A stretch of DNA of 64,000 bases from Candidatus Spongiihabitans sp. GTDB taxonomy: Bacteria; Pseudomonadota; Gammaproteobacteria; Arenicellales; Poriferihabitantaceae. How positions within the stretch are numbered: position 1 is the first letter of the stretch; each line of letters opens with the position of its first letter. The DNA lies in NCBI GenBank assembly GCA_965261425.1, contig OZ253452.1:2275892-2339891 (forward strand), read 5' to 3'. The notes beneath the pieces are model-generated. The model had not been told where the DNA came from and did no database searches. It worked only from the letters and a program-made list of their open reading frames with translations. Positions 1-47,239 of the stretch are shown here, one piece after another. A program made the translations under genes and the position numbers.

Positions 1-1
1 A

Positions 2-874
2 ACCTATCCTGATTTGTTGCGAAGGCGCGCGCTGGTCGAAAAAGAACTGCAACAGATAGTGATTTACCGACAGCAACAAGATAAATTAACAAATCAATAC
101 CAAGAAAAAATCACGCAAGCCAAAAGCCACCGCAGCGAATTGACAGAACGCAGACAGCAGTTTCTTGAGCGTGTTTTAGCGGGCAATCTGTCAGTCAGAA
201 TAAGCGTTAAACCGTTTGCCGAGTCATGGCTTGATATGGAAAAACAAATCAGGGGCATATTGCAGACAGGTGGTCGTTTCGGCAAAGATATTGAAGCACT
301 GAAACAGATTGTTGACAAACAAGGATGGGGGCAGGCAAAGGAACAGCTAATCGCTATTCGCGGCAATAAAAAAGATGCCAAAGATGTCAGCTTTCAAACC
401 CATTTGCAGGGCTTGCCAGCCGAATCAATGACAGATATGCGGTTATGGTTTCCCGAAGATGCCTTGCAAATCACCTATGGAGAAAATGATAAGAAAATCA
501 GTGAAGGCTCGCCGGGGCAAAAATCTGCCGCCTTGCTGGCGTTTATTCTTGCTTATGGCGATGAACCATTGCTGCTTGACCAGCCAGAAGATGACTTGGA
601 TAATGACCTGATTTATAGCTTGATTGTGCAAGATATTAGAGCGACCAAAACTAACCGACAGATTGTTGTGGTTACCCACAATGCCAATATCGTGGTCAAT
701 GGTGATGCTGAAATGGTGCATTGTTTGACTGTGACGCACGGACAGTCACACATAACATCCGGCAGCCTCCAATCCAAAGCCATCAGAGAGCGCATTTGTA
801 ACACACTGGAAGGTGGTGATAAAGCCTTTGAGCAACGCTATAAGCGCATACATTTGGAGCGTCAACAATGTTAA
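2..874 (+). CDS. C-terminal part of an ABC/SMC-type (OLD/TrlF-like) AAA ATPase; 5' end lies outside the window
   Basis: The frame is open from the window edge; the listed ORF merely begins at an internal TTG at 14. A Walker B/D-loop-like LLLDQPEDDLD is followed by VVVTHNANIVVNGDAE. The stop (872-874) overlaps the next start (ATGTTAA). Confidence 0.55.
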   Translation, partial: TYPDLLRRRALVEKELQQIVIYRQQQDKLTNQYQEKITQAKSHRSELTERRQQFLERVLAGNLSVRISVKPFAESWLDMEKQIRGILQTGGRFGKDIEALKQIVDKQGWGQAKEQLIAIRGNKKDAKDVSFQTHLQGLPAESMTDMRLWFPEDALQITYGENDKKISEGSPGQKSAALLAFILAYGDEPLLLDQPEDDLDNDLIYSLIVQDIRATKTNRQIVVVTHNANIVVNGDAEMVHCLTVTHGQSHITSGSLQSKAIRERICNTLEGGDKAFEQRYKRIHLERQQC

Positions 875-2133
875 CCCCCTACGATATTTTAGACAAAATA
901 AATACTGGAGAAAACTCCGGGGTGGAGTTCAAGGATGTGATTGTTCGCGGTGACAAAATAAAAGCACCACACAGGGACAGTTTGTCCGATGAATTCGCCG
1001 CTTTCGCCAATCAATCAGGCGGCGCGGTGATCTTTGGGGTTGCTGATAAGACCCGTGAAATCAGGGGCATTGGTGTTGCGGATGTCCCTGTCTTGATTGC
1101 CTATATCAGCGAAATTTGTCACGACTCTGTTAATCCTCACATCGTGGATTTTTATGTGGATGGCGTTGAGATACCGGAACCAGGTGAAACCGGTGAAGAA
1201 AAGCATGTGGTTTATGTGCAGATTGAGCGAAGTCTTTGGCTCCATAAAAGCAAGAATGGTTATTTCTATCGACACGGTAATAGCAAAAGAGAAATGAGTA
1301 CAGAACATGTTTTGCGGGCAGGTCAAAGCCGCTCGCAAGCGCGCATTATTCAATTTTGTGAACAGTTTGTATCCAATACCGCTAAAGCAACTTTGCAAAA
1401 AAGTTTATACGCCCGTTTTATTAGTGCTACAGATACTGCTGATGAGGAAAACGACCTGCTTTTGAAACGAAATATCTTAATTGATGATCAGGGTGACTAC
1501 CGTGCATCAGTCGCTGGATTATTGATGTGTAGTGAACAATCGGACGAATATCTATACAACAGTTTTATTTGTGCAGTCTGCTACAAAGGACTTAATAAAG
1601 ACGCGAATTACCAACTGGATGCCAAAGATTTCAAAGGCACCTTAGATCAGCAAATAGTAGATGCCTATAAATTTGTCGAGAAACACAATACCGTTTCTGC
1701 GCGTAAGGAAAGCGGCCGCGAGGATCGACCCCAGTACAGCATGCAAGCTGTGTTTGAAGCGATAGTCAACGCAGTAGTACACCGGGATTACGCAAAGCAT
1801 GGCTCAAAAATCAGATTATTTATGTTTGCTGACCGGCTGGAAATTTGCTCACCCGGCGCATTGGCAAATACTTTAACGGTGGATAATTTGCCATACAATC
1901 AAGTTACCCGCAACGAACTTTTGGCCCGCTTATTGTCAGAAATAATAATTGAAGATGACAGCATCGGTCAAACAGCTCAAAGAAAACATTTTTTAGAACG
2001 TCGTGGTGAAGGTGTTGGAATTATTTTGCAACAAAGTGAGGAATTAAGCGGCAGGAAACCCATTTATAAAATGTACGACGAGGAGTTACATTTAACAGTT
2101 TTTGCCGCAAAATCCTTGCCGGATGAGGCTTAG
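868..2133 (+). CDS. AlbA_2 (Schlafen-type divergent AAA) DNA-binding domain protein with a RecG-like/HATPase_c_4-type C-terminal domain
   Basis: The N-terminus ENSGVEFKD...FANQSGGAVIFGV is typical of AlbA_2. The C-terminal AVFEAIVNAVVHRDYAKHGSKIRLFMFADRLEICSPGAL is typical of the RecG-like putative regulator family. It is coupled to both neighbours. Confidence 0.6.
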   Translation: MLTPYDILDKINTGENSGVEFKDVIVRGDKIKAPHRDSLSDEFAAFANQSGGAVIFGVADKTREIRGIGVADVPVLIAYISEICHDSVNPHIVDFYVDGVEIPEPGETGEEKHVVYVQIERSLWLHKSKNGYFYRHGNSKREMSTEHVLRAGQSRSQARIIQFCEQFVSNTAKATLQKSLYARFISATDTADEENDLLLKRNILIDDQGDYRASVAGLLMCSEQSDEYLYNSFICAVCYKGLNKDANYQLDAKDFKGTLDQQIVDAYKFVEKHNTVSARKESGREDRPQYSMQAVFEAIVNAVVHRDYAKHGSKIRLFMFADRLEICSPGALANTLTVDNLPYNQVTRNELLARLLSEIIIEDDSIGQTAQRKHFLERRGEGVGIILQQSEELSGRKPIYKMYDEELHLTVFAAKSLPDEA

Positions 2134-2136
2134 AAA

Positions 2137-4860
2137 ATGGCACTCCACCCCGATTTCCCGCAATCCCCGCACGCTATTCTGAATCCGGATACGCGCTGGT
2201 TTCCGGCGGACGAGACCCTGCGAGAGACCAGCATGAATAAGCTCATGCCACCGCTGGTGGCAAAGATTCGCCAGCAGGTGAAGGTGTTTCGGAACGATGA
2301 TTATGCTGGTGCCAGCGACACCAGCAAAAGTCTGCTCAACTGGTGGTTCAGGGAACCGCATAGGCTGCCGCAAGCAGACGGCACGATGGCAGAATTTCAA
2401 TATTTCTTTGCCCAGCGCGAAGCATTAGAAACCATGATTTATCTCTATGATGTTGTGGGGGTAAAAGACAGGTATGACCTGATGCGCTTCGATAGTTCAG
2501 GTGCGGTATCCGCTAATATGTTTGACGAAAGCTGGCGGCGGTTTGTTATCAAGATGGCAACCGGTAGCGGTAAAACCAAAGTAATGAGCCTGGTGCTGGC
2601 TTGGAGTTTCTTTCACAAACTCTACGAACCGAACTCGGAGTTGGCGCGTAATTTTCTGGTAATCACCCCCAACATTATTGTGCTGGATCGCATTTACCAT
2701 GACTTTCAAGGGTTGCGTATTTTCTTTTCCGATCCGGTGTTGCCCGACAACGGCTTTGATGGGCGTAACTGGCGTGAGGACTTCCAGCTCACCCTGCACA
2801 AACAGGACGAGGTGCGCGTTACCCGCCCCATCGGCAATATATTCCTGACCAATATCCACCGCGTCTATTCAGGCAATGACATCCCGCCCTCGCCCAATGA
2901 CGACAACACGATGGATTATTTTCTGGGCAAGCGTCCGAGCGGCGCGACTACCAATTCGAAAGTGGATTTGGGTATGATTGTGCGCGACATTGACGAGTTG
3001 ATGATACTCAACGACGAGGCGCACCATATCCATGATAAAAAGCTGGCATGGTTCAAATCCATAGAAGATATTCACAATCGGCTGTTGCAGAAAGGCGGGG
3101 CACTGGCATTACAGGTGGATGTAACCGCCACGCCGAAGCACAACAACGGCGCGATTTTCGTGCAAACCGTGTCCGACTACCCGCTGGTCGAGGCAATTTC
3201 CCAGAACGTGGTCAAACATCCGGTTTTGCCGGATGCGTCCAGCCGTGCAAAACTAGCGGAACACACCAGCGCAAAGTTTACCGAAAAATACAGCGATTAC
3301 ATTGATCTTGCTGTCATTGAATGGCGTAAGGCGTATGCCGAACATCAGAAGATGGGCAAAAAAGCGATTCTATTCGTGATGACCGACGACACCCGCAACT
3401 GCGATGACGTGGCCGAATATCTGGAAGGCCGCTACCCCGACCTTAAAGATGCGGTGCTGGTTATTCACACCAAAAATAATGGCGATATTTCCGAAGCGAC
3501 CTCGGGCAGGAAAAAAGAGGAGCTGGAAAAGCTACGCCAACAAGCCAACACGATTGATGAAGCGGACAGCCCCTACAAAGCCATTGTCTCCGTGTTGATG
3601 CTCAAGGAAGGCTGGGACGTTCGCAACGTCACCACTATTGTTGGTTTGCGCGCCTATACGTCCAAAAGCAATATCCTGCCGGAACAAACCCTCGGGCGCG
3701 GCCTGCGCAAGATGTACCCCGGTGGCTTGGAGGAATACGTCAGTGTCGTCGGCACCGATGCGTTTATGGATTTTGTCGAGTCGATTCAAGCAGAAGGCGT
3801 GGAGCTTGAACGCGCCGCGATGGGGGAAGGTGCCGACTCAAAGCTGCCGCTTGTGGTGGAAATTGACAACGACAACGAAACAAAGGACATTGAGGCACTG
3901 GACATTGAGATACCCGTACTTACGCCGCGTATCTATCGTGAATACAAAACCCTCACCGATTTAGATGCAAGTGCGATGGAGTACAGCCCGGTGCCTTACC
4001 AACCATTCAGCGCGCAGGAGCAGCGGGAGATTGTCTTCCGCGACATCACCACCAGCGAGATAACCCACACCACAATCCTTGATAGTGCCGGCGTGGCCGA
4101 CTATCGTAGCGTAATCGGATATTTCGCCCAGACTGTTATGCAGGAATTGCGACTGGTCAGCGGCTATGACGTACTCTACGGCAAAATCAAGACCTTTGTA
4201 CAGACCGAGCTATTTGCCCAGGCTGTAGAACTCGAACACCCGAATACGCTACGCAACTTATCGGAACTGCCCGCCACCAAAACGCTAATCGAGACTTTCA
4301 AAAAGGCTATCAATGCCTTAACCGTGCAGGATACGGGGGGTGCCGAAATACGCGCGACCATCAAATTACGCCAGACGCGCCCTTTTGTGGTGAAAAATCA
4401 GGCTTCTATAATCCCAAAAAAGAGTGTTTTCAACCGTATCATCGGCGACAGCCGGCTGGAACTTGAGTTTGCGAATTTTCTGGATAATTGCCCGAATGTG
4501 GTGTCTTATGCAAAAAATTACCTCGCCGTTCATTTCAAGCTGGATTATGTCAACGCCGATGGGAACATTTCCAATTATTACCCCGATTTTATCGTCAAAT
4601 TGAAAGACCAGAGCATTGCCATCGTCGAAACCAAAGGGCAGGCAGACTTGGACGTGCTGCCGAAGATGGCGCGCCTGCGGCAATGGTGCGAAGACATCAA
4701 TCGGATACAGTCGAATGTGATCTATGCTTTCGTGTATGTGGACGAGGACGGCTTCAATAAATATAAACCCGAGTCATTTTCGGATTTATTGACCAGTTTT
4801 CAAGAATATCAGCAGAATGGGCAACCAATCGCAGACACAGAAAACGTTGTGTTTAATTGA
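2137..4860 (+). CDS. Type III restriction Res-like SF2 helicase with C-terminal PD-(D/E)xK nuclease motif
   Basis: Motif I is MATGSGKTKVM and motif II is LNDEAHHIH (DEAH). VDVTATP is present, and motif VI is LPEQTLGRGLRK after KEGWDVRNV. The C-terminal YYPDFIVK...IAIVETKG matches a PD..ExK nuclease core. It starts 4 nt after the upstream stop. Confidence 0.75.
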   Translation: MALHPDFPQSPHAILNPDTRWFPADETLRETSMNKLMPPLVAKIRQQVKVFRNDDYAGASDTSKSLLNWWFREPHRLPQADGTMAEFQYFFAQREALETMIYLYDVVGVKDRYDLMRFDSSGAVSANMFDESWRRFVIKMATGSGKTKVMSLVLAWSFFHKLYEPNSELARNFLVITPNIIVLDRIYHDFQGLRIFFSDPVLPDNGFDGRNWREDFQLTLHKQDEVRVTRPIGNIFLTNIHRVYSGNDIPPSPNDDNTMDYFLGKRPSGATTNSKVDLGMIVRDIDELMILNDEAHHIHDKKLAWFKSIEDIHNRLLQKGGALALQVDVTATPKHNNGAIFVQTVSDYPLVEAISQNVVKHPVLPDASSRAKLAEHTSAKFTEKYSDYIDLAVIEWRKAYAEHQKMGKKAILFVMTDDTRNCDDVAEYLEGRYPDLKDAVLVIHTKNNGDISEATSGRKKEELEKLRQQANTIDEADSPYKAIVSVLMLKEGWDVRNVTTIVGLRAYTSKSNILPEQTLGRGLRKMYPGGLEEYVSVVGTDAFMDFVESIQAEGVELERAAMGEGADSKLPLVVEIDNDNETKDIEALDIEIPVLTPRIYREYKTLTDLDASAMEYSPVPYQPFSAQEQREIVFRDITTSEITHTTILDSAGVADYRSVIGYFAQTVMQELRLVSGYDVLYGKIKTFVQTELFAQAVELEHPNTLRNLSELPATKTLIETFKKAINALTVQDTGGAEIRATIKLRQTRPFVVKNQASIIPKKSVFNRIIGDSRLELEFANFLDNCPNVVSYAKNYLAVHFKLDYVNADGNISNYYPDFIVKLKDQSIAIVETKGQADLDVLPKMARLRQWCEDINRIQSNVIYAFVYVDEDGFNKYKPESFSDLLTSFQEYQQNGQPIADTENVVFN

Positions 4861-5136
4861 AAATGGGCGTAGCAAAGAAACTCTGAACACCCACTGGTTT
4901 ATAGATGAGCCAGATATTTCGTGAACATCCCGTTTAATTTTCGAATTCAATCCACACTGGAAAATGATCCGAACCTTGTGCTTCGCTATTTACCCAGTAC
5001 TTTTTTAGTTTTTGGCGAATTGAGCTGCTGGCAAAACAGTAGTCCAGTTGGGCAGGAGAACCGGCAACTAAGCTGGTATGTCCGGGTATTTTATCCTGTC
5101 CACATTGACGCCAAGTTTAAGAACTTACTGGGGATT

Positions 5137-5248
5137 GAGGGTTTTCTACATGTAACATGCACTAGCTTGGGGTTTTTGCACAGTCTCCTCCGCAGGAAAG
5201 ACGGATGTTGGTTTTTTGCACAGTCTCTTCGTTCGGCGAGGCTCTCGA
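5137..5248. repeat. Composite of fragments of the dispersed MITE family (two right-end-type modules ending TTGCACAGTCTC plus a GGCGAGGCTCTCGA module)
   Basis: 5137-5187 aligns to the right half of the 59188-59307 copy. 5188-5227 is the reverse complement of its left end (CGCAGGAAaGACGGATGTTGGTTTtTTGCACAGTCTC). 5228-5248 matches the reverse complement of 60725-60745. Confidence 0.7.
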
Positions 5249-5455
5249 TCCGTCCGATTATTTTTTGAATTATGCAAAGGTCTCTCGTAATTCGTAATTT
5301 TATTAATCTGCCGTATGTGATAAAATCCTGCCGATTTAGTGGACAACATTTATGTCGTCATGCCCGACCCGATGATTGCCGTTAGAGCATCTTTATTAAA
5401 GAAACGCACTTACTGCTAATGACATCATAACCATCGCAAATATAATTTCGCCACA

Positions 5456-8092
5456 ATGACACAAACGCCTTTCGCAAAAGAAACCCTACCCGCTAATCTG
5501 GAAAAAGAGATGCGGCAGTCCTACCTCGACTACGCCATGAGCGTCATCGTAGGGCGTGCCTTGCCGGATATTCGGGATGGCTTAAAACCGGTTCATCGGC
5601 GGGTGTTGTACGCCATGTCGGTGCTGGGCAATGATTGGAATAAGGCTTATAAAAAATCCGCTCGGGTCGTCGGTGATGTGATTGGTAAATACCATCCGCA
5701 CGGTGATACGGCGATTTATGACACCATCGTGCGTATGGCACAGGATTTTTCCATGCGTTATATGCTGGTCGATGGGCAGGGCAACTTCGGTTCAGTGGAC
5801 GGCGATTCACCCGCGGCGATGCGATATACCGAAATACGCTTGGCGCGGATTGCCCACGAATTATTGATCGACATCGACAAAGAGACCGTAGATTTTGGTC
5901 CGAACTATGATGAAACGGAAACCCAGCCTTTGGTATTGCCTGCTCGGGTTCCCAACTTGCTGGTCAATGGTTCCACCGGTATTGCCGTGGGCATGGCGAC
6001 CAACATTCCGCCCCATAATCTGGGTGAGACGATTGATGCCTGTTTCGCGCTGATGGATAACAGTGAAATCAGTGTGGCAGAATTGATGAAACACTTGCCG
6101 GGCCCGGATTTCCCGACCGCTGGAATCATCAATGGTCGTAGCGGCATCCGTCAGGCTTATGAAACCGGTCGTGGGCGGATTTATGTGCGTGCGCGCACTG
6201 AAATCGAAACCAATAGCAATGGACGCGAGTCCATCATCGTTGTCGAATTACCCTATCAGGTCAACAAGGCGAGATTGATGGAAAAAATTGCCGAGCTGGT
6301 TAAAAACAAACGCATCGATGGCATATCGGCAATCCGTGACGAATCCGATAAATCGGGTATGCGGATGGTGGTTGAGATAAAAAGGGGCGAACAGTCGGAA
6401 GTGGTGTTGAATAATTTATACAAACAAACTCAGTTGCAAACTGTATTTGGCATCAACATGGTGGCGTTGAGCAGAAATCAGCCAAATATATTCAACCTGA
6501 AAGAAATACTTGCCGAATTCATCAAATACCGCCGGGAAGTGGTGACTCGCAGAACGGTATTTGAGCTTGGCAAGGCGCGTAGTCGCGCCCATCTGCTCGA
6601 AGGTCTTGCGGTCGCGCTCGCCAATATAGACGCGATTATTGCGCTGATTAAGGCGGCGCAAACCTCGGCGCAAGCGAAAGAAAACTTGTTGAACGAAATA
6701 TGGCAACCGGGCGCGGTGGCTGACATGCTGTCGCGTAGCGATGCCAACTTGTCGCGTCCAGATGGTTTGGATGAAGAGTATGCCATGACCCAAACAGGGT
6801 ATCGGCTGTCGCCAGAGCAGGCGCAGGCTATTCTGGACATGCGCTTGCATCGACTGACCGGTCTGGAACAGGAAAAAATCCATAAAGAATATGCTGAAAT
6901 CATCGACCAGATTCTTGCGTTGCTGGAGATTCTGGAAAACCCGGATCGTTTGGTGGAAGTTATTCGTGAGGAATTACAGGATATTCGTGATCGCTATGGC
7001 GATGAGCGGCGCACAGAAATTATGGAAGGCGAGATTGATTTGTCTATGGAGGATTTGATTCCCGAAGAAGATGTGGTGGTGACCATTTCCCACGAGGGTT
7101 ATGCGAAGTTGCAGCCCATTTCGGATTACTGTGCCCAGAAACGTGGCGGCAAGGGCAGGATTGCGACCCGAACCAAAGAAGAAGATTTCGTTAGTCGTAT
7201 GTTTGTGGCAAATTCGCATGACACCATTTTGTGTTTTTCCAACATGGGTAAGGTCTATTGGTTGCGGGTGTTTCAGTTGCCGCAAGCCGGACGGCAAGCA
7301 CGAGGCAAGCCTTTGGTTAATTTGTTGCCGCTTGATGCCGATGAGCAGGTGACCACCGTATTACCGATTAAAGGTTATGCGGAAGACACCAATATCCTCA
7401 TGGCAACGGCGTTGGGGGTCATTAAAAAGAATCGTCTGAACGATTTTTCACGTCCCAGAATTTCCGGCATTAAAGCGATAAATTTACAGCCGGATGACCA
7501 TTTAATCGGCATAGTCTTAACCCATGGTGAGGATGATTTACTGCTGATTAGCGATGCTGGTAAGGCGATGAGGTTTTCAGAGAAAGATGTTCGGCTGGTC
7601 GGGCGCGTGGCGAGAGGAGTCAGAGGGATTCGCTTGGACAAAGGTCAACACGTTATTTCACTGATGGTGTTGCCCTCGGCGGATGTTGCTAATGCCGGCG
7701 ATGGTAGTAAAGAGGCGGTATCGGAGCCGGCAATTCTGACCTGCACCATACATGGCTATGGAAAGCGTACTCCGATTGCCGATTTTCCGCGCAAAAACCG
7801 CGCTGGAAAAGGCGTTATTGCGATAAAAACATCGAAGCGGAATGGGATGGTTGTGAGCGCGCACATCGTCAATCAATCCGATGAGGTTATGTTGATTACT
7901 GATGGCGGTATTCTGATTCGTACCCGCATTGCCGAAATTTCGAATCAGGGCAGGAATACCCAAGGGGTCAGGCTGATTTCACTGAAAAATGACGAAAAAT
8001 TAGTCAGCGTAGGCAAGGTTGAGGATACCGATGAGGTCGATGATACTGGCGATGATAAAGCAGAACCAACACACGACCCGCTGATTCATTAA
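5456..8092 (+). CDS. gyrA: DNA gyrase subunit A
   Basis: 878 aa. It has the canonical N-terminus with the active-site region and QRDR ([13 protein letters not shown]), plus C-terminal beta-pinwheel repeats. Confidence 0.97.
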
Positions 8093-8135
8093 GCCTGAAC
8101 CTGAACCCGAGCCCAAATCAGGCATATAACGAAGA

Positions 8136-9233
8136 ATGAGCAAAGAAACCGACCAAAAACTGACTGTTTTTCGCGATGAAATCGACCACATTGATGCCGA
8201 TATTCTGCGCTTGATGAATAAACGACTCAAGGTCGCACAATCGATTGCCCAAATTAAAACCACGTTGGAGGAGCCTGCGTTTTACCGGCCGGAACGAGAA
8301 GCGCGGGTTTTGAGTCGTCTGCAAGACCTGAATGACGGATTGTTGCAGAACCGCTCGCTGGAATCATTGTTCAGGGAAATCATGTCCATTACGCGGGGCA
8401 TAGAGGCAGGATTATCGGTGGCAGTGCTCGGTCCGATTGGCACTTATACCGAAGCGGCTGCGCGACACCATTTCGGGAGTAGCATTACCATTACCGATTT
8501 CTCCACCATTGATGAGATTTTCAAAGCGACCGAAACCGGGCGCACCAATTTCTCTGTGGTGCCGGTTGAAAACTCGACCGAAGGCGGCGTAACCGGAACG
8601 CTGGATCGTTTGGTCAACACTTCGCTCACCATCTGCGGGGAGATTAATTTACCCATTCACCACAATTTATTGAGCCTTGCGGATGGGCCGAATGGTGATT
8701 TGAGTCGGGTGAAAAAAATATACGCACATACCCAGTCTTTGGGACAATGCAAACACTGGCTGGATAAAAATTGTTCGCAAGCAGAATTGATTCCGGTGAG
8801 CAGTAATGCCGATGCGGCTCAAAAAGTGACTACGGAAAAATCAGCCGCTGCCATTGCCAGCGCGATTGCCGCACAACGCTACAAGCTCAAAACTGTAGCG
8901 ACAAACATTGAGGATGAACCGGGTAACACAACCCGCTTTTTAGTCTTGTCCAACCGCACCACGCCACCCAGTGGCAACGACAAAACCAGTTTGTTATTAT
9001 CTTGTCGAAGTCGCCCGGGGGCGTTGTTGCATTTATTGCAACCGTTGCTCGGCGAGCAGATTGATATGACTAAAATTGAATCCAGACCCTCCAAAATCGG
9101 GCTGTGGGAATACATCTTTTTTATTGATATTATGGGTCATCAAGAACAACAACATGTTGCAAAAGCATTGAGCGAACTCAAAGCGGAAGCGGGATTATTC
9201 AAAAATCTCGGCTCCTATCCGGCATCTATTTAA
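8136..9233 (+). CDS. pheA: Bifunctional chorismate mutase / prephenate dehydratase (P-protein)
   Basis: The N-terminal CM_2 region is LTVFRDEIDHIDADILRLMNKR. It is followed by a PDT domain (VAVLGPIGTYTE..., TRF motif NTTRFLVL) and a C-terminal ACT-like region (ESRPS). Confidence 0.9.
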   Translation: MSKETDQKLTVFRDEIDHIDADILRLMNKRLKVAQSIAQIKTTLEEPAFYRPEREARVLSRLQDLNDGLLQNRSLESLFREIMSITRGIEAGLSVAVLGPIGTYTEAAARHHFGSSITITDFSTIDEIFKATETGRTNFSVVPVENSTEGGVTGTLDRLVNTSLTICGEINLPIHHNLLSLADGPNGDLSRVKKIYAHTQSLGQCKHWLDKNCSQAELIPVSSNADAAQKVTTEKSAAAIASAIAAQRYKLKTVATNIEDEPGNTTRFLVLSNRTTPPSGNDKTSLLLSCRSRPGALLHLLQPLLGEQIDMTKIESRPSKIGLWEYIFFIDIMGHQEQQHVAKALSELKAEAGLFKNLGSYPASI

Positions 9234-9274
9234 TCCCCATATTAGCCCAGCGCGGGCTAGGCGCGAAGAAATAC

Positions 9275-10165
9275 ATGAACGAAACACCTCATATTCAGAC
9301 CCTTGCCATTGTCGGTGTCGGCTTGATTGGCGGCTCGCTGGCGATGGCATTGAAGCAGGCAGGCGCAGTCGGGAGCATCATCGGCGTAGGACGCTCGCGG
9401 GTGAATTTAGCCACCGCCTTGTCGCTTGGGGTTATCGATCAAATCCAGCCCGACCTGCAACAGGCGGTTGATGATGCCGATATTATTGTGCTGGCAACGC
9501 CGGTCAATACCATTGCGAGGCTTTTTGAAGCCATTGCACCAGCGATGAATGCGGATAAAATTGTAACCGATGTCGGCAGTGTCAAGGGCGGCATCGTCGA
9601 GCAGGCGAGAGCCGCATTGGGCATTCATTTTAATCGCTTTGTCGGCGCCCATCCGGTTGCCGGCAAGGAAAAATCGGGTATTACGGCAGCCACGAACGAT
9701 TTGTTTGAAAATCATAAAGTGATTTTGACCCCAAACGCGCAAACCGATGTGGAAGCCTGTCGGCGCATCGAAAACATGTGGCGAAGTACCGGTGCCGAAG
9801 TGAAATTGATGGATGTGGCAGAGCACGATCGGGTGTTGTCCATCACCAGCCATCTGCCGCATGTGTTGGCGTATGTGATGATGGATTTTCTGTCAACGTC
9901 ATCATCACGCGACCGCTGTTATGAGATGGCGGCTGGTGGTTTTTATGATTTCACCCGCACCGCCTCCAGCGACCCAGAAATGTGGCGCGATATTTCGCTG
10001 ATGAATAAACAATATTTACTGGCGCATATTGCCGAGTTTAAGACTCAATTAGAGCATGTCGCCAAGATGATTGAGGCAGACGAACAACAGGCTATCGAGA
10101 CGCTGTACGCATCAGCAAAGCAAGCCCGCGCTCGGGTCACGGAAAAACGAAAAAGCACGTTGTAG
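9275..10165 (+). CDS. tyrA: Prephenate (arogenate) dehydrogenase
   Basis: It has a Rossmann N-terminus (IVGVGLIGGSLAMAL), GAHPVAGKEKSG and SHLPHVLAY motifs, and lies in the aromatic amino-acid gene block. Confidence 0.85.
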   Translation: MNETPHIQTLAIVGVGLIGGSLAMALKQAGAVGSIIGVGRSRVNLATALSLGVIDQIQPDLQQAVDDADIIVLATPVNTIARLFEAIAPAMNADKIVTDVGSVKGGIVEQARAALGIHFNRFVGAHPVAGKEKSGITAATNDLFENHKVILTPNAQTDVEACRRIENMWRSTGAEVKLMDVAEHDRVLSITSHLPHVLAYVMMDFLSTSSSRDRCYEMAAGGFYDFTRTASSDPEMWRDISLMNKQYLLAHIAEFKTQLEHVAKMIEADEQQAIETLYASAKQARARVTEKRKSTL

Positions 10166-10203
10166 CAACGCGCTGAATTTTAATTTCGTATTATGAGCAT
10201 CCT

Positions 10204-19831: not shown

Positions 19832-21718
19832 CCTGACTTCGACGGTTGGCTCCATGCAGATCGCCCACAGCCCAATAAACATGCGGGGGTGGTAGAGAAG
19901 TTGGTTTGTAGTGCCTATTTAAATATTTGTGTTGACTTCGGTGATCGAATGGTATAGACTCACCCCATGTTCGTTCGCGTTAAATCTACACCCAATAGCC
20001 CAAGACAATCGGTTCAGATTGTTTCATCTGTGCGCGTCGGCGATAAGGTCAAGCAAAAGATTGTCCGTTATATCGGCATTGCCATGGATGACGATGAGTT
20101 AGTGCGATTGAAAGAGCTGGCCGAAGTCGTCAAGGCGAAGCTTGAAGCCCAGCATCAGCCCAGCCTGTTTCCGCCTGAGACGGTTGCCAAACAGATGATT
20201 GAAGCGAAAGCAGCCAAAGCGTCTAAAGCCACCTTGAATGTTGATCTGAGGCAGATGGTGGAAGAACAGCGGGTGGTGCTGGGCATCCATGAAGTGTATG
20301 GCGAGGTCTATCGCCAGTTATCATTCGATACCCTGTTGTCGCAGAGGCGGTATCGTGCTTCCCATGAAGCCCTGTTCCATTGCGTGATGGCACGCATTGC
20401 TAACCCTAAAAGCAAGCGCGGCAGCGTGCAGCACTTGGAGCAGGACTTTGGCGTTTCTTTGTCCTTAGAGAAAGTTTATCGGATGATGGATCAGCTTGAC
20501 GATAACACCATCAGCCGGCTGCAAACGATGACCTGTGAAGGTACGCGATCCTTGTTGCCTGGTGCCCTGGATGTGTTGTTTTTTGATTGTACGACGCTCT
20601 ATTTTGAGTCTTTCAAGGAAGACGAATTAAAACAAAATGGCTACAGCAAGGACTGTAAATTTAATCAGCCGCAAGTATTGCTGGCTTTGCTGGTCACCCG
20701 CGAAGGTCTGCCGGTCGGCTACGAAGTGTTCCCCGGTGCTACTTTCGAGGGCCATAGCCTAATCAGCGTTTTGAAGACGATGCAAGCGCGCTATGATGTT
20801 AGGAAAATGATCTTTGTCGCTGATCGGGGCATGCTTAATGAAGACAATCTGCATGCCCTGGATGAGGCGGGCGCTTATTACATTGTTGGGGCGAAACTAA
20901 AACAATTGCCAAGTGCACTACAAACCAAAGTATTGGATAAATCAGCTTATCAGGCGCTCGATAAAGGCGCATCAAGCGCAGCCGAGCTGACGCACAAGAA
21001 GAGACGACTCATTGTCTCACATTGTCCAAAGCGTGCGGATAAAGATCAACATGACCGACAAAAGGCAGTCGATCGGCTCATCAAGAAAATCGGTAAAAGC
21101 CAGAATCCCAAGGACTTATTAAATAACTACGGCTATAAAAAATTTCTGATTATCAAGGGAAAGACTAGCCTGAGTATCAACCAAGATAAAATTGCTGCCG
21201 AAAGCCGCTGGGACGGACTGCATGGTGTCATCACCAATTTGCCCGATACGCCGCATCAGGAAGTGCTATCACACTATCGCGGCTTATGGCAGGTCGAGGA
21301 GAGTTTTCGAATCACTAAACATGACTTGAAAGTACGGCCTATCTACCACTGGACACCCTCAAGAGTGCGTGCCCACATTGCCATTTCGTTCATGGCTTTT
21401 GCCTGCATCAGACAGCTAATGTATCGAATCAAGCTACAACACAAAGCCTTATCCCCTGAGGTTATCCGTAATGCCTTGATTCATGTGCAACATAGTGTAT
21501 TCAAACACAAGCGCACCAAGAAAAGCTATGTCATGCCTTCTCAAATCAATCCAGAGGCAAAAAAAATCTATGCTGTGATGGGATTAAAAGCGACCACCAC
21601 AGCTTACCCACTGTACTAATTGACATAATCCTTCAATATCTAGGCATTTGTAGTGCCTAGGTATTTTTGTGTTTCTTTATAAATCAATAGTTTATGAATA
21701 TGAACCGTCGAAGTCAGG
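19832..21718 (+). mobile_element. IS1634-family (IS4-related) insertion sequence, 1887 bp, apparently intact
   Basis: It has perfect 16-bp terminal inverted repeats: CCTGACTTCGACGGTT at 19832-19847, and its complement at 21703-21718. It carries a single 550-aa transposase ORF and is flanked by a 68-bp direct repeat. Confidence 0.85.
19967..21619 (+). CDS. IS1634-family DDE transposase
   Basis: The N-terminus MFVRVKSTPNSPRQSVQIVSSVRVGDKVKQKIVRYIG and the ~550-aa size match the IS1634 group pattern. The DDE region includes FVADRGM and YRGLWQVEESFRITK. Confidence 0.8.
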   Translation: MFVRVKSTPNSPRQSVQIVSSVRVGDKVKQKIVRYIGIAMDDDELVRLKELAEVVKAKLEAQHQPSLFPPETVAKQMIEAKAAKASKATLNVDLRQMVEEQRVVLGIHEVYGEVYRQLSFDTLLSQRRYRASHEALFHCVMARIANPKSKRGSVQHLEQDFGVSLSLEKVYRMMDQLDDNTISRLQTMTCEGTRSLLPGALDVLFFDCTTLYFESFKEDELKQNGYSKDCKFNQPQVLLALLVTREGLPVGYEVFPGATFEGHSLISVLKTMQARYDVRKMIFVADRGMLNEDNLHALDEAGAYYIVGAKLKQLPSALQTKVLDKSAYQALDKGASSAAELTHKKRRLIVSHCPKRADKDQHDRQKAVDRLIKKIGKSQNPKDLLNNYGYKKFLIIKGKTSLSINQDKIAAESRWDGLHGVITNLPDTPHQEVLSHYRGLWQVEESFRITKHDLKVRPIYHWTPSRVRAHIAISFMAFACIRQLMYRIKLQHKALSPEVIRNALIHVQHSVFKHKRTKKSYVMPSQINPEAKKIYAVMGLKATTTAYPLY

Positions 21719-47143: not shown

Positions 47144-47239
47144 GAGACTATGCAAGAACCCAACATCCGTCATTCCCGCGTAGGAGACTGTGCAAAAATC
47201 CAACATTCGTCATTCCTGCGAAGCAGGAATCCAGTCAAA
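47144..47239 (+). repeat. Two tandem left-end fragments of the MITE family
   Basis: The fragments are GAGACTaTGCAAGAAcCCAACATCCGTCATTCCcGCG.. (47144) and GAGACTGTGCAAaAAtCCAACATtCGTCATTCCTGCGAAGCAGGAATCCAG (47184). Confidence 0.75.

What the first reader, a model, noticed from the sequence alone, without database searches (positions are those of the whole stretch)
2..4860. Coupled ATPase / AlbA_2 / Res-type helicase-nuclease operon with no methyltransferase in view: candidate defence module
Three genes are packed with overlapping or near-abutting stops and starts: ATGTTAA at 868-874, and TAG..ATG at 2131-2139.
- Gene 1 is an ABC/SMC-like ATPase tail (DQPEDDLD, THNANIVVNGDAE).
- Gene 2 is an AlbA_2 (Schlafen-type) nucleic-acid-binding domain fused to a RecG-like HATPase-type C-terminus.
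- Gene 3 is a DEAH SF2 helicase ending in a PD..ExK nuclease motif, typical of type III Res subunits.

Each component is common in anti-phage loci, but I do not recognise this particular trio as a named system. The block sits directly upstream of a MITE scar and gyrA, so it lies at a core/accessory boundary. The operon start is off-window, so a Mod methyltransferase could lie upstream.
Basis: partly seen in the sequence, partly recalled or inferred. Interest (0 to 1): 0.6.

Follow-up and report, generated by a model that had tools for sequence, protein, structure and literature searches.

The report
Restriction operon carrying an embedded defence cassette
The three genes are the visible three-quarters of a type III-like restriction-modification operon, whose methyltransferase very probably lies just off the window edge, with a two-gene Ppl/TrlF ATPase plus Schlafen nuclease cassette inserted between its two subunits; every component is of a known kind.

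Summary

The "new trio without a methyltransferase" reading does not hold.
- **The closest relative has a Mod.** L124 is collinear with window 1-5137 at 90% nt identity. It reads Mod (754 aa, N6_N4_Mtase) → g1 (887 aa) → g2 → Res, with mod's stop overlapping g1's start.
- **g3 orthologues almost always follow a Mod.** This is so in 73 of 75 informative loci: 26 have mod and res adjacent, and 47 have varied passenger genes between them. None of the 80 loci in that scan carries an intact g1 or g2.
- **g1 and g2 travel as a fixed pair.** They keep the same order and strand and overlap or nearly abut in 19 loci, only 4 of which hold g3. The pair occurs alone on plasmids, inside a type I R-M operon on an IncC plasmid, and inside an Hma-like operon.

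g1 belongs to the TrlF family and is a full-length homologue of the single-gene defence Ppl: a PHP nuclease fused to a Rad50/SMC-like ATPase. g2 is a Schlafen-GHKL protein with an intact Ex4ExK tRNase motif.

Verdict: a type III-like R-M operon with an embedded cassette, made of ordinary components. The unnamed, conserved TrlF-Schlafen pairing is the only modest lead.

The parts
2..874 (+). g1, the 3' 290 codons of a TrlF-family / Ppl-like protein (PHP nuclease fused to a Rad50/SMC-like ABC ATPase). The window edge cuts off the 5' ~600 codons.
   Evidence: - NCBIfam TrlF_fam_ATP 1.7e-73 and PADLOC Ppl 2.5e-48.
- The full-length orthologue P0121/L124 (95% identical over the fragment, 887 aa) scores TrlF 597 bits against a cut-off of 350.
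- ABC signature SPGQKS lies at 509-544, Walker B/D-loop LLLDQPEDDLD at 569-601 and H-loop VVVTHNAN at 665-697.
868..2133 (+). g2, a stand-alone Schlafen (AlbA_2) nuclease plus GHKL-type HATPase_c_4 protein ('Schlatpase'; the pSlfn-HisKinase class), 421 aa.
   Evidence: - Pfam SLFN_AlbA_2 covers aa 15-144 (nt 910-1299) and HATPase_c_4 covers aa 312-410 (nt 1801-2097).
- The Ex4ExK motif ENSGVEFK at nt 910-933 is conserved in all aligned homologues.
- PADLOC's pAgo model matches over its SLFN+GHKL part.
2137..4860 (+). g3, the Res subunit of a type III-like R-M system: SF2 helicase-type ATPase plus a C-terminal PD-(D/E)xK nuclease, 907 aa.
   Evidence: - Pfam ResIII 7.2e-15 and PADLOC REase_III 3.4e-18.
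- Sources name close homologues 'type III restriction endonuclease subunit R'.
- Walker A lies at 2554-2580, DEAH at 3007-3027, motif VI at 3685-3708 and PD..ExK at 4576-4638, all in invariant columns.
- A Mod lies upstream in 73 of 75 informative orthologous loci.
4861..5455 (.). Spacer between the island and gyrA. It holds the end of the homology with L124 and a short dispersed repeat.
   Evidence: - Homology to L124 continues to window 5137 and resumes at 5188-5299 (98%), after which the flanks differ.
- There is a direct repeat at 5170-5230 and related copies elsewhere in the window.

Best explanation
The window shows the last three genes of a four-gene operon, mod → g1 → g2 → res. Two systems are nested in it.

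**(1) Outer system: a type III-like R-M pair.**
- Mod lies off-window. It is about 754 aa, a beta-class N6/N4 methyltransferase.
- Res is g3.
- By analogy with type III enzymes, Mod recognises and hemimethylates a short asymmetric site. Res joins it and uses ATP to communicate between unmethylated sites, and its C-terminal PD-(D/E)xK domain cuts foreign DNA.

**(2) Inner system: a mobile two-gene cassette inserted exactly between the mod stop and the res start.**
- g1 is a TrlF/Ppl-type protein. An N-terminal PHP phosphoesterase takes the place that Mre11 holds beside Rad50, and it is fused to a Rad50/SMC-like ABC ATPase with a coiled coil. Its most likely role is to sense or process invading nucleic acid.
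- g2 is a Schlafen tRNase whose GHKL domain probably drives ATP-dependent oligomerisation. Its most likely role is to shut down translation by tRNA cleavage (abortive infection).

The cassette is co-transcribed with the R-M genes but is probably functionally autonomous.

**Shown.**
- Gene order, domain content and intact motifs.
- Mod upstream in the nearest relatives.
- Independent distribution of the pair and of the R-M backbone.

**Inferred.**
- Presence of Mod in this genome.
- All biochemical activities.
- Any g1-g2 physical coupling.
For: **Mod upstream in relatives.**
- L124 reads Mod-g1-g2-Res and is 90.3% nt collinear with window 1-5137; mod's TGA overlaps g1's ATG.
- L126 reads Mod-g1-g2-[MNT+HepT]-Res.
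- L125 has Mod remnants, then g1-g2, then a remnant of the first 39 Res codons.
- The L124 Mod's best PADLOC match is MTase_III, 355 bits.

**R-M backbone.** 73 of 75 informative g3-orthologue loci have Mod on the same strand upstream. In 26 the genes are adjacent (3-12 nt). In 47 they are separated by 0.3-3.8 kb holding KilA-N, RhuM, PDDEXK_3, PIN+DUF4325+HATPase_c, AAA_21 with a partner, AAA+S8 or zeta-like genes.

**Cassette autonomy.**
- g1 and g2 are adjacent on the same strand with an HSP gap of -18 to +28 nt in 18 of 19 loci. Only 4 of the 19 hold g3.
- Identities of g1 and g2 to the window co-vary (Spearman 0.85, n=17).
- The pair stands alone on Burkholderia thailandensis p1 and Pseudomonas savastanoi pPsv48B.
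- It sits inside a type I R-M operon on IncC plasmid pNDM-EcoGN568 and inside an Hma-like operon in L113.

**g1.**
- The orthologue passes the TrlF cut-off and aligns end-to-end with Ppl.
- Its AlphaFold model has pLDDT 84. It matches JetC, SMC, Rad50 and RecN heads, and the N-terminus matches the RNase AM PHP domain.

**g2.**
- The Ex4ExK motif is intact.
- Schlafen-HisKinase is the commonest prokaryotic Schlafen architecture, and tested bacterial Schlafens cleave tRNA (PMC13056530).
[quoted passage not shown] Stand-alone 'Schlatpase' genes occur in R-M operons (bioRxiv 10.64898/2026.05.29.728809).
Against: - The window ends inside g1, so neither Mod nor the g1 N-terminus is seen for this genome.
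- The two closest relatives of g3 itself (L001 and L129, 93-95% aa) are orphan Res genes. They have no Mod, g1 or g2 within 10 kb upstream. L125 has a decayed Mod. An eroded R-M is therefore possible here.
- g3 finds no solved structure by sequence or profile, and its AlphaFold model was unusable (pLDDT 42.6). The type III assignment therefore rests on Pfam/PADLOC matches, source names and the mod→res arrangement.
- The two Schlafen-HisKinase proteins tested alone in E. coli gave no protection (PMC13056530).
- No activity of any of these proteins has been measured.
Confidence: 0.8

Rival explanations
1. The ATPase, the Schlafen protein and the helicase-nuclease form one integrated, methyltransferase-independent defence system.
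For: - The three genes are tightly coupled translationally.
- The same order recurs in L117, L124 and L126.
Against: - Every relative of the trio with enough upstream sequence carries Mod or its remnant.
- None of the 80 g3-orthologue loci of the genome scan has an intact g1 or g2.
- 15 of 19 g1-g2 loci lack g3.
- g3's constant partner is Mod, in 73 of 75 informative loci.
Confidence: 0.04
2. PrrC-like guard. The embedded TrlF-Schlafen cassette is functionally tied to its host R-M enzyme. It stays latent while the R-M complex is intact and unleashes tRNA cleavage when a phage anti-restriction factor disables the complex.
For: - The same pair is embedded in three unrelated methylase-containing operons: type III, type I on an IncC plasmid and Hma-like.
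- An ABC ATPase paired with a tRNA nuclease parallels PrrC in the EcoprrI type I locus and PARIS AriA/AriB (my own knowledge of those systems). g1 hits AriA models weakly.
Against: - The pair also occurs with no R-M gene adjacent on B. thailandensis and P. savastanoi plasmids and in L096 and L120.
- Many unrelated cassettes occupy the same mod-res slot. This fits a permissive insertion site better than a specific partnership.
Confidence: 0.12
3. The locus is a decaying remnant. Mod is lost or broken in this genome, so Res is inert, and only the g1-g2 cassette, if anything, is active.
For: - L001 and L129 hold orphan Res genes that are 93-95% identical to g3. They keep a 48-nt remnant of g2's 3' end, and L001's is cut by IS66.
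- L125 has a fragmented Mod and only 39 codons of Res.
- L117's g1 has an in-frame stop 46 codons upstream of the point where the window begins.
- L118 holds a decayed pair.
Against: - All three window ORFs are intact over 290, 421 and 907 codons.
- Every catalytic motif falls in columns that are invariant across orthologues.
- The nearest g1-g2 relative, L124, has an intact four-gene operon.
Confidence: 0.2
4. g2 is a transcriptional regulator of the operon (the older COG2865-type annotation) rather than a nuclease effector.
For: - Sources annotate homologues as 'transcriptional regulator', 'ATP-binding protein' or 'RNA-binding domain-containing protein'.
Against: - g2 ends directly after the HATPase_c_4 domain and has no HTH.
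- The catalytic Ex4ExK residues are conserved.
- Bacterial Schlafen domains have been shown to be tRNases (PMC13056530; bioRxiv 10.64898/2026.05.29.728809).
Confidence: 0.05

Closest known systems
Type III restriction-modification systems (mod-res operons, EcoP15I type)
   Same: - Gene order is mod→res.
- Mod is a beta-class N6_N4 methyltransferase whose best PADLOC match is MTase_III.
- Res combines a ResIII/SF2 ATPase with a C-terminal PD-(D/E)xK motif.
- Sources call homologues 'type III restriction endonuclease subunit R'.
   Different: - Res is too diverged to hit any solved structure, EcoP15I included, by sequence or profile.
- It scores only 261 bits on NCBIfam restr_BPTD_3080 against a cut-off of 800.
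- About two-thirds of loci carry extra genes between mod and res.
- The backbone is unusually conserved: 75-94% aa identity across many phyla.
Ppl (single-gene PHP-ATPase anti-phage system, Gao et al. 2020) and the NCBIfam TrlF family
   Same: - The full-length orthologue of g1 aligns end-to-end with both models: TrlF 597 bits (passes the cut-off) and PADLOC Ppl 2.9e-140.
- It has the same PHP plus ABC ATPase architecture.
   Different: - It falls below NCBIfam's Ppl equivalog cut-off (560 against 1000 bits).
- Ppl is described as a single gene (PMC11482910). Here, and in at least 19 loci, the gene is translationally coupled to a downstream Schlafen gene.
Prokaryotic Schlafen nucleases, pSlfn-HisKinase class, also called the 'Schlatpase' module
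   Same: - g2 has an AlbA_2/Schlafen domain with the Ex4(E/D)xK motif and a GHKL-type HATPase_c_4 domain.
- This is the commonest architecture, 34% of pSlfns (PMC13056530).
- A stand-alone Schlatpase within an R-M operon has been reported (bioRxiv 10.64898/2026.05.29.728809).
   Different: - The published examples are single proteins or fusions to Ago, to type I HsdS, to NACHT or to Ig-like sensors.
- A fixed upstream TrlF/Ppl partner is not mentioned in the papers I could search.
Defence genes embedded in multi-gene immune systems ('guilt by embedding': Hma, BREX, DISARM, type I R-M)
   Same: - Unrelated defence cassettes are nested between the core genes of a methylase-containing system (bioRxiv 10.1101/2024.01.29.577857).
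- The g1-g2 pair is itself found embedded in Hma-like and type I R-M operons.
   Different: That study lists Hma, BREX, DISARM and type I R-M as hosts. Here the host is a type III-like mod-res pair, and the insertion falls exactly at the mod-stop/res-start junction.
PrrC/EcoprrI and PARIS (AriA ABC ATPase plus AriB tRNA nuclease)
   Same: - An ABC ATPase is combined with a tRNA-targeting nuclease.
- PrrC is likewise encoded inside an R-M operon (my own knowledge).
- g1 gives weak AriA model hits.
   Different: - The nuclease folds differ (Schlafen against the PrrC anticodon nuclease and AriB Toprim), and g1 carries an extra PHP domain.
- No evidence shows that the pair responds to anti-restriction proteins.

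Membership tests
Type III R-M system | Res subunit with an SF2 helicase-type ATPase (Walker A, DEAH, motif VI) | tested here: met
   - Pfam ResIII 7.2e-15 and PADLOC REase_III 3.4e-18.
- GSGKT, DEAH and QTLGRGLR fall in invariant columns.
Type III R-M system | C-terminal PD-(D/E)xK endonuclease domain in Res | tested here: inconclusive
   - The motif PDF...VETKG (aa 816-834) is invariant.
- Pfam RE_endonuc and TnsA-like_N matches are below cut-off.
- The structure model was too poor to test the fold (pLDDT 42.6).
Type III R-M system | A Mod methyltransferase encoded immediately upstream in the same operon | tested here: inconclusive
   - Mod is not visible in the window.
- It is present in the nearest relatives L124 and L126, and as remnants in L125.
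- It is present in 73 of 75 informative orthologous loci.
- It is absent from the orphan-Res loci L001 and L129.
Type III R-M system | Mod is a beta-class N6-adenine methyltransferase (motif IV before motif I, with the target-recognition region between them) | tested here: met
   - In the partner Mod of L003, DPPF (about aa 128) precedes FCGSGTT (about aa 390), read.
- Pfam N6_N4_Mtase 8.6e-41.
- The L124 Mod matches PADLOC MTase_III at 1.7e-106.
- Tested on relatives, not on this genome.
Type III R-M system | Res depends on Mod; ATP-dependent cleavage needs two inversely oriented unmethylated sites | not testable with these tools
   Requires biochemistry.
TrlF family AAA-like ATPase (NCBIfam NF045780) | Whole-protein score above the curated cut-off (350 bits) with end-to-end alignment | tested here: met
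   - The window fragment scores 248.8 bits over profile positions 645-944.
- The 95%-identical full-length orthologue scores 596.7 bits over 2-944/944.
Ppl anti-phage protein (NCBIfam NF042955 equivalog; PADLOC Ppl) | Score above the NCBIfam equivalog cut-off (1000 bits) | tested here: not met
   - 559.9 bits for the full-length orthologue, so it is a homologue with the same architecture rather than an equivalog.
- The PADLOC Ppl model matches end-to-end at 2.9e-140.
Ppl anti-phage protein | N-terminal PHP phosphoesterase domain fused to an ABC ATPase | tested here: inconclusive
   - This is off-window for g1 itself.
- It is present in orthologue P0121: the HTHTP and DHN motifs and a model N-terminus matching the RNase AM PHP domain at TMt 0.61.
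Ppl anti-phage protein | Acts as a single-gene system | tested here: not met
   The literature describes Ppl as a single gene (PMC11482910). In this clade 8 of 9 loci have a coupled Schlafen gene immediately downstream.
Prokaryotic Schlafen nuclease (pSlfn, HisKinase/GHKL class) | AlbA_2/Schlafen domain above the Pfam cut-off with the catalytic Ex4(E/D)xK motif | tested here: met
   - PF04326 scores 55.2 bits against a cut-off of 25.3.
- E15, E20 and K22 are conserved in 11 aligned homologues.
Prokaryotic Schlafen nuclease (pSlfn, HisKinase/GHKL class) | C-terminal GHKL-type ATPase-like domain | tested here: met
   - PF13749 HATPase_c_4 scores 65.8 bits against a cut-off of 26.
- The N-box-like ExxxNAxxHRDY and the RGEGVG motif are conserved.
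Prokaryotic Schlafen nuclease (pSlfn, HisKinase/GHKL class) | tRNA cleavage and phage protection | not testable with these tools
   Requires experiment. The two HisKinase-class proteins tested alone gave no protection in E. coli (PMC13056530).

The most novel reading that the evidence does not exclude
The TrlF/Ppl-like PHP-Rad50-type ATPase and the Schlafen-GHKL protein form an obligate two-component defence system. The ATPase-nuclease would sense invading nucleic acid and license the Schlafen tRNase. This would explain two things: why Schlafen-HisKinase proteins tested alone were inactive, and why the pair is inherited as a unit and repeatedly embedded in type I, type III and Hma methylase systems. 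As far as I could find, the pair is unnamed and untested.
Probability: 0.4. Interest if true: 0.55.

Novelty: new member of a known kind. Interest (0 to 1): 0.33.

Why it matters
**Annotation.** This locus should be read as 'type III-like R-M plus embedded Ppl-like and Schlafen genes', not as a new system. It also shows how a window edge can hide the gene that decides the interpretation.

**Leads worth keeping.**
- A TrlF/Ppl-type ATPase and a Schlafen-GHKL nuclease are co-inherited as a fixed, translationally coupled pair across distant bacteria and on clinical IncC and Klebsiella plasmids. Both are currently treated as single-gene systems. Testing them together could reveal how the commonest bacterial Schlafen class is activated.
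- The mod-res junction of one very conserved type III-like backbone acts as a cassette slot. That makes it a cheap place to look for further defence genes.

Tried and rejected
**Searches that found nothing or were capped.**
- Exact look-ups of g2 and g3 found no identical protein on record.
- The first homologue search with the 290-aa g1 fragment returned only proteins of 508 aa or fewer, which were fragments. Padding the query with X residues fixed this.
- PDB sequence and profile searches for g3 and for a TrlF homologue found nothing. g2 hit only the uncharacterised 3lmm.
- The AlphaFold model of g3, built from 32 sequences 80-93% identical to g3, was unusable (pLDDT 42.6), so no fold search was run on it.
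- Literature searches for 'TrlF' and for a named Ppl-Schlafen system gave nothing relevant. No supplementary tables of the Schlafen paper were held.

**Checks that came back negative.**
- The 533-aa ORF at the end of L002 is not a TrlF N-terminus.
- The promoter/terminator scan of 1-5600 was no different from shuffled sequence.

**Readings considered and rejected.**
- g2 as a RecG-like helicase: only the HATPase_c_4 domain name suggests this, and g2 has no helicase motifs.
- g1 as a transporter ATPase: its NCBIfam ABC-transporter hits are all far below cut-off.

Full report
**1. Observation**

The three ORFs exist as described.
- g1 runs 2-874 and is open to the window edge.
- g2 runs 868-2133 (421 aa).
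- g3 runs 2137-4860 (907 aa).
- The junctions read ATGTTAA at 868-874 and TAGAAAATG at 2131-2139.

The domain calls were right.
- g1 is the C-terminal 290 residues of an ABC/SMC-type ATPase. It matches NCBIfam TrlF_fam_ATP at 1.7e-73 (profile positions 645-944 of 944) and PADLOC Ppl at 2.5e-48.
- g2 has SLFN_AlbA_2 and HATPase_c_4, both above Pfam cut-offs.
- g3 has ResIII, weak C-terminal nuclease matches and a PD...ExK string.

No methyltransferase is detectable anywhere in the 64-kb window.

**2. What accompanies g3 elsewhere**

A scan of one genome per species returned 80 loci encoding g3 orthologues. These are 75-94% identical across Pseudomonadota, Chloroflexota, Planctomycetota, Verrucomicrobiota, Cyanobacteria, Chlorobi, Acidobacteriota and other phyla.

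None of the 80 loci has an intact g1 or g2. The only traces are a weak ATPase hit downstream of Res in L017 and a 56-codon remnant of g2's 3' end in L002.

A ~750-aa N6_N4_Mtase lies upstream on the same strand in 73 of them.
- Five of the other seven loci have too little upstream sequence to judge.
- In 26 loci mod and res are 3-12 nt apart.
- In 47 loci they are separated by 0.3-3.8 kb of varied cargo: KilA-N, RhuM, PDDEXK_3, PIN+DUF4325+HATPase_c, AAA_21 with a partner gene, AAA plus S8 peptidase, or a zeta-toxin-like kinase.

So g3 is the Res subunit of a widely transferred mod-res pair whose junction serves as a cargo slot. Sources name close homologues 'type III restriction endonuclease subunit R' or 'type III restriction enzyme'.

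**3. What lies upstream of g1**

The first search with the g1 fragment listed only short proteins, none longer than about 1.75 times the query. Padding the query with X residues recovered full-length orthologues.
- **L124.** Its g1 orthologue P0121 is 95% identical to the window fragment. L124 aligns collinearly with window 1-5137 at 90.3% nt. It reads Mod (754 aa) 7740-10004, g1 (887 aa) 10001-12664, g2 (421 aa) and Res (907 aa). Mod's TGA overlaps g1's ATG. This Mod's best PADLOC match is MTase_III, 355 bits.
- **L126** (g1 76-77%). It reads Mod-g1-g2-[MNT+HepT]-Res.
- **L125** (86%). It keeps Mod fragments upstream of g1-g2. Downstream it has the first 39 codons of Res joined to the last 27 codons of Mod, followed by a second cassette.

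All three of these relatives, each with readable sequence upstream of g1, therefore show Mod or its remnant directly upstream of g1.

For this genome, however, Mod is inferred and not seen.

**4. The g1-g2 pair is its own unit**

- In 19 loci g1 and g2 homologues lie in the same order on the same strand. The HSP gap is -18 to +28 nt in 18 of them; the exception is the decayed L118.
- Only four of the 19 also hold g3 or its remnant.
- Identities of g1 and g2 to the window co-vary (Spearman 0.85, n=17).
- Sampled from the g1 side, 8 of 9 loci have the Schlafen gene downstream.
- Sampled from the g2 side, 8 of 21 informative metagenome loci have TrlF upstream. The remaining g2 homologues are solo or sit in other defence contexts.

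The pair occurs in several settings.
- Alone on Burkholderia thailandensis p1 and Pseudomonas savastanoi pPsv48B.
- On many Klebsiella, Escherichia and Yersinia plasmids.
- Inside a type I R-M operon on IncC pNDM-EcoGN568, as hsdR-TrlF-AlbA_2-hsdS-AAA-hsdM.
- Between the SNF2 helicase and the DUF1156 methylase of an Hma-like operon in L113.

TrlF also occurs without a Schlafen partner, for example on Raoultella p23141-KPC.

**5. What the parts are**

*g1.*
- The full-length orthologue passes NCBIfam's TrlF cut-off (597 against 350 bits). It aligns end-to-end with Ppl but falls below the equivalog cut-off (560 against 1000 bits).
- Its AlphaFold model has pLDDT 84.
  - Residues of about 290-880 match JetC, SMC, Rad50 and RecN heads with a coiled coil.
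  - The N-terminus matches the PHP domain of RNase AM.
- This gives a single-chain arrangement with PHP in the place of Mre11 beside Rad50. No Ppl structure is in the PDB copy.
- Ppl is described as an uncharacterised single-gene system (PMC11482910).

*g2.*
- It carries the Ex4ExK motif (E15, E20, K22), conserved in all aligned homologues, and it has no HTH.
- The Schlafen-HisKinase architecture is the commonest prokaryotic Schlafen class, and tested bacterial Schlafens are phage-activated tRNases (PMC13056530).
[quoted passage not shown] Stand-alone 'Schlatpase' genes have been seen in R-M operons (bioRxiv 10.64898/2026.05.29.728809).

*g3.*
- It retains Walker A, DEAH, motif VI and PD..ExK in invariant columns.
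- It is too diverged to hit any solved structure, and its model failed.

**6. Mechanism**

The most likely reading, at about 0.8 confidence, is a nested arrangement.
- An outer type III-like R-M marks self DNA and cuts unmodified DNA.
- An inner, autonomous TrlF-Schlafen cassette acts as a second layer, probably by nucleic-acid sensing followed by tRNA cleavage.

The gene arrangement and motifs are shown. All activities are inferred from homologues.

Rival readings, with confidence:
- One integrated trio system: about 0.04.
- A PrrC-like guard of the R-M enzyme: about 0.12. Repeated embedding in three kinds of R-M system favours it; stand-alone occurrences count against it.
- An eroded R-M with an inert Res: about 0.2. 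This is not exclusive of the main reading. It is suggested by the orphan Res genes in L001 and L129, which are the closest relatives of g3 at 93-95%, and by L125.

**7. Comparison and novelty**

Each component belongs to a known kind.
- PADLOC-type tools would call RM type III plus Ppl.
- g2 falls in a published Schlafen class.
- Embedding of defence genes inside multi-gene systems is published for Hma, BREX, DISARM and type I R-M (bioRxiv 10.1101/2024.01.29.577857).

Two things were not found in the searchable literature.
- The conserved TrlF-Schlafen pairing.
- The use of this type III-like mod-res junction as a cassette slot.

The finding is therefore a new member of known kinds, with a modest lead attached.

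Noticed in passing
L125:13928-14122; L002:16871-17119 and 20804-21100; also L006, L062, L063: There are junction scars between cassettes. In L125 the first 39 codons of Res are fused to the last 27 codons of Mod ahead of a second cassette. In L002 Mod C-terminal fragments separate successive cassettes. This suggests that cassettes are swapped or stacked by homologous recombination through the conserved mod-3' and res-5' flanks.
   Followed up: partly
window 2137-4860 compared with L001, L129 and L124: The operon is a mosaic. The window's Res is closest (93-95% aa) to orphan Res genes in Poriferihabitaceae-type genomes. Those loci lack Mod, g1 and g2 upstream and keep only 48 nt of g2's 3' end. 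The window's g1 and g2, by contrast, are closest to L124 (95% and 93%), whose Res is only 88% identical.
   Followed up: partly
window 5170-5230 and 5188-5299; related copies at 47144-47226, 59185-59307 and 60721-60854: A short dispersed repeat sits in the spacer before gyrA. One 112-nt stretch is 98% identical to L124 17090-17201, just downstream of that genome's res gene, although the wider flanks differ: gyrA here, transposases and an integrase in L124.
   Followed up: partly
L130 (pNDM-EcoGN568, NZ_KJ802404.1:134798-145835): A TrlF plus AlbA_2 pair sits between hsdR and hsdS of a type I R-M operon on a clinical IncC NDM plasmid, and a further AAA ATPase sits between hsdS and hsdM. Many Klebsiella, Escherichia and Yersinia plasmids carry the same overlapping pair.
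   Followed up: partly
L001-L080 (g3 orthologues): The Res protein is 75-94% identical across at least ten phyla, and more than 8000 database proteins score E ≤ 1e-5, the cap of the search. That is unusually tight conservation for an R-M enzyme and implies very frequent horizontal transfer of one backbone.
   Followed up: no
L117:1-100 and L118:9286-11314: Some relatives carry damaged g1 genes. L117 has an in-frame stop 46 codons upstream of the position where the window begins. L118 keeps only the C-terminal ~365 residues, next to a g2 that has lost its AlbA_2 domain.
   Followed up: partly
PMC11482910 (literature) and model mba3046e174b8: The reported phage counter of Ppl (Bas63 gp130) is Ro60-like, and the PHP domain of the g1 orthologue model most resembles RNase AM, an exoribonuclease. 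Together these hint that Ppl-type proteins may act on RNA rather than DNA, which would fit a partnership with a tRNase.
   Followed up: no
tool behaviour: the search for homologous proteins listed no hit longer than about 1.75 times the query length. A truncated query therefore returns only fragments unless it is padded, for example with X residues.
   Followed up: yes
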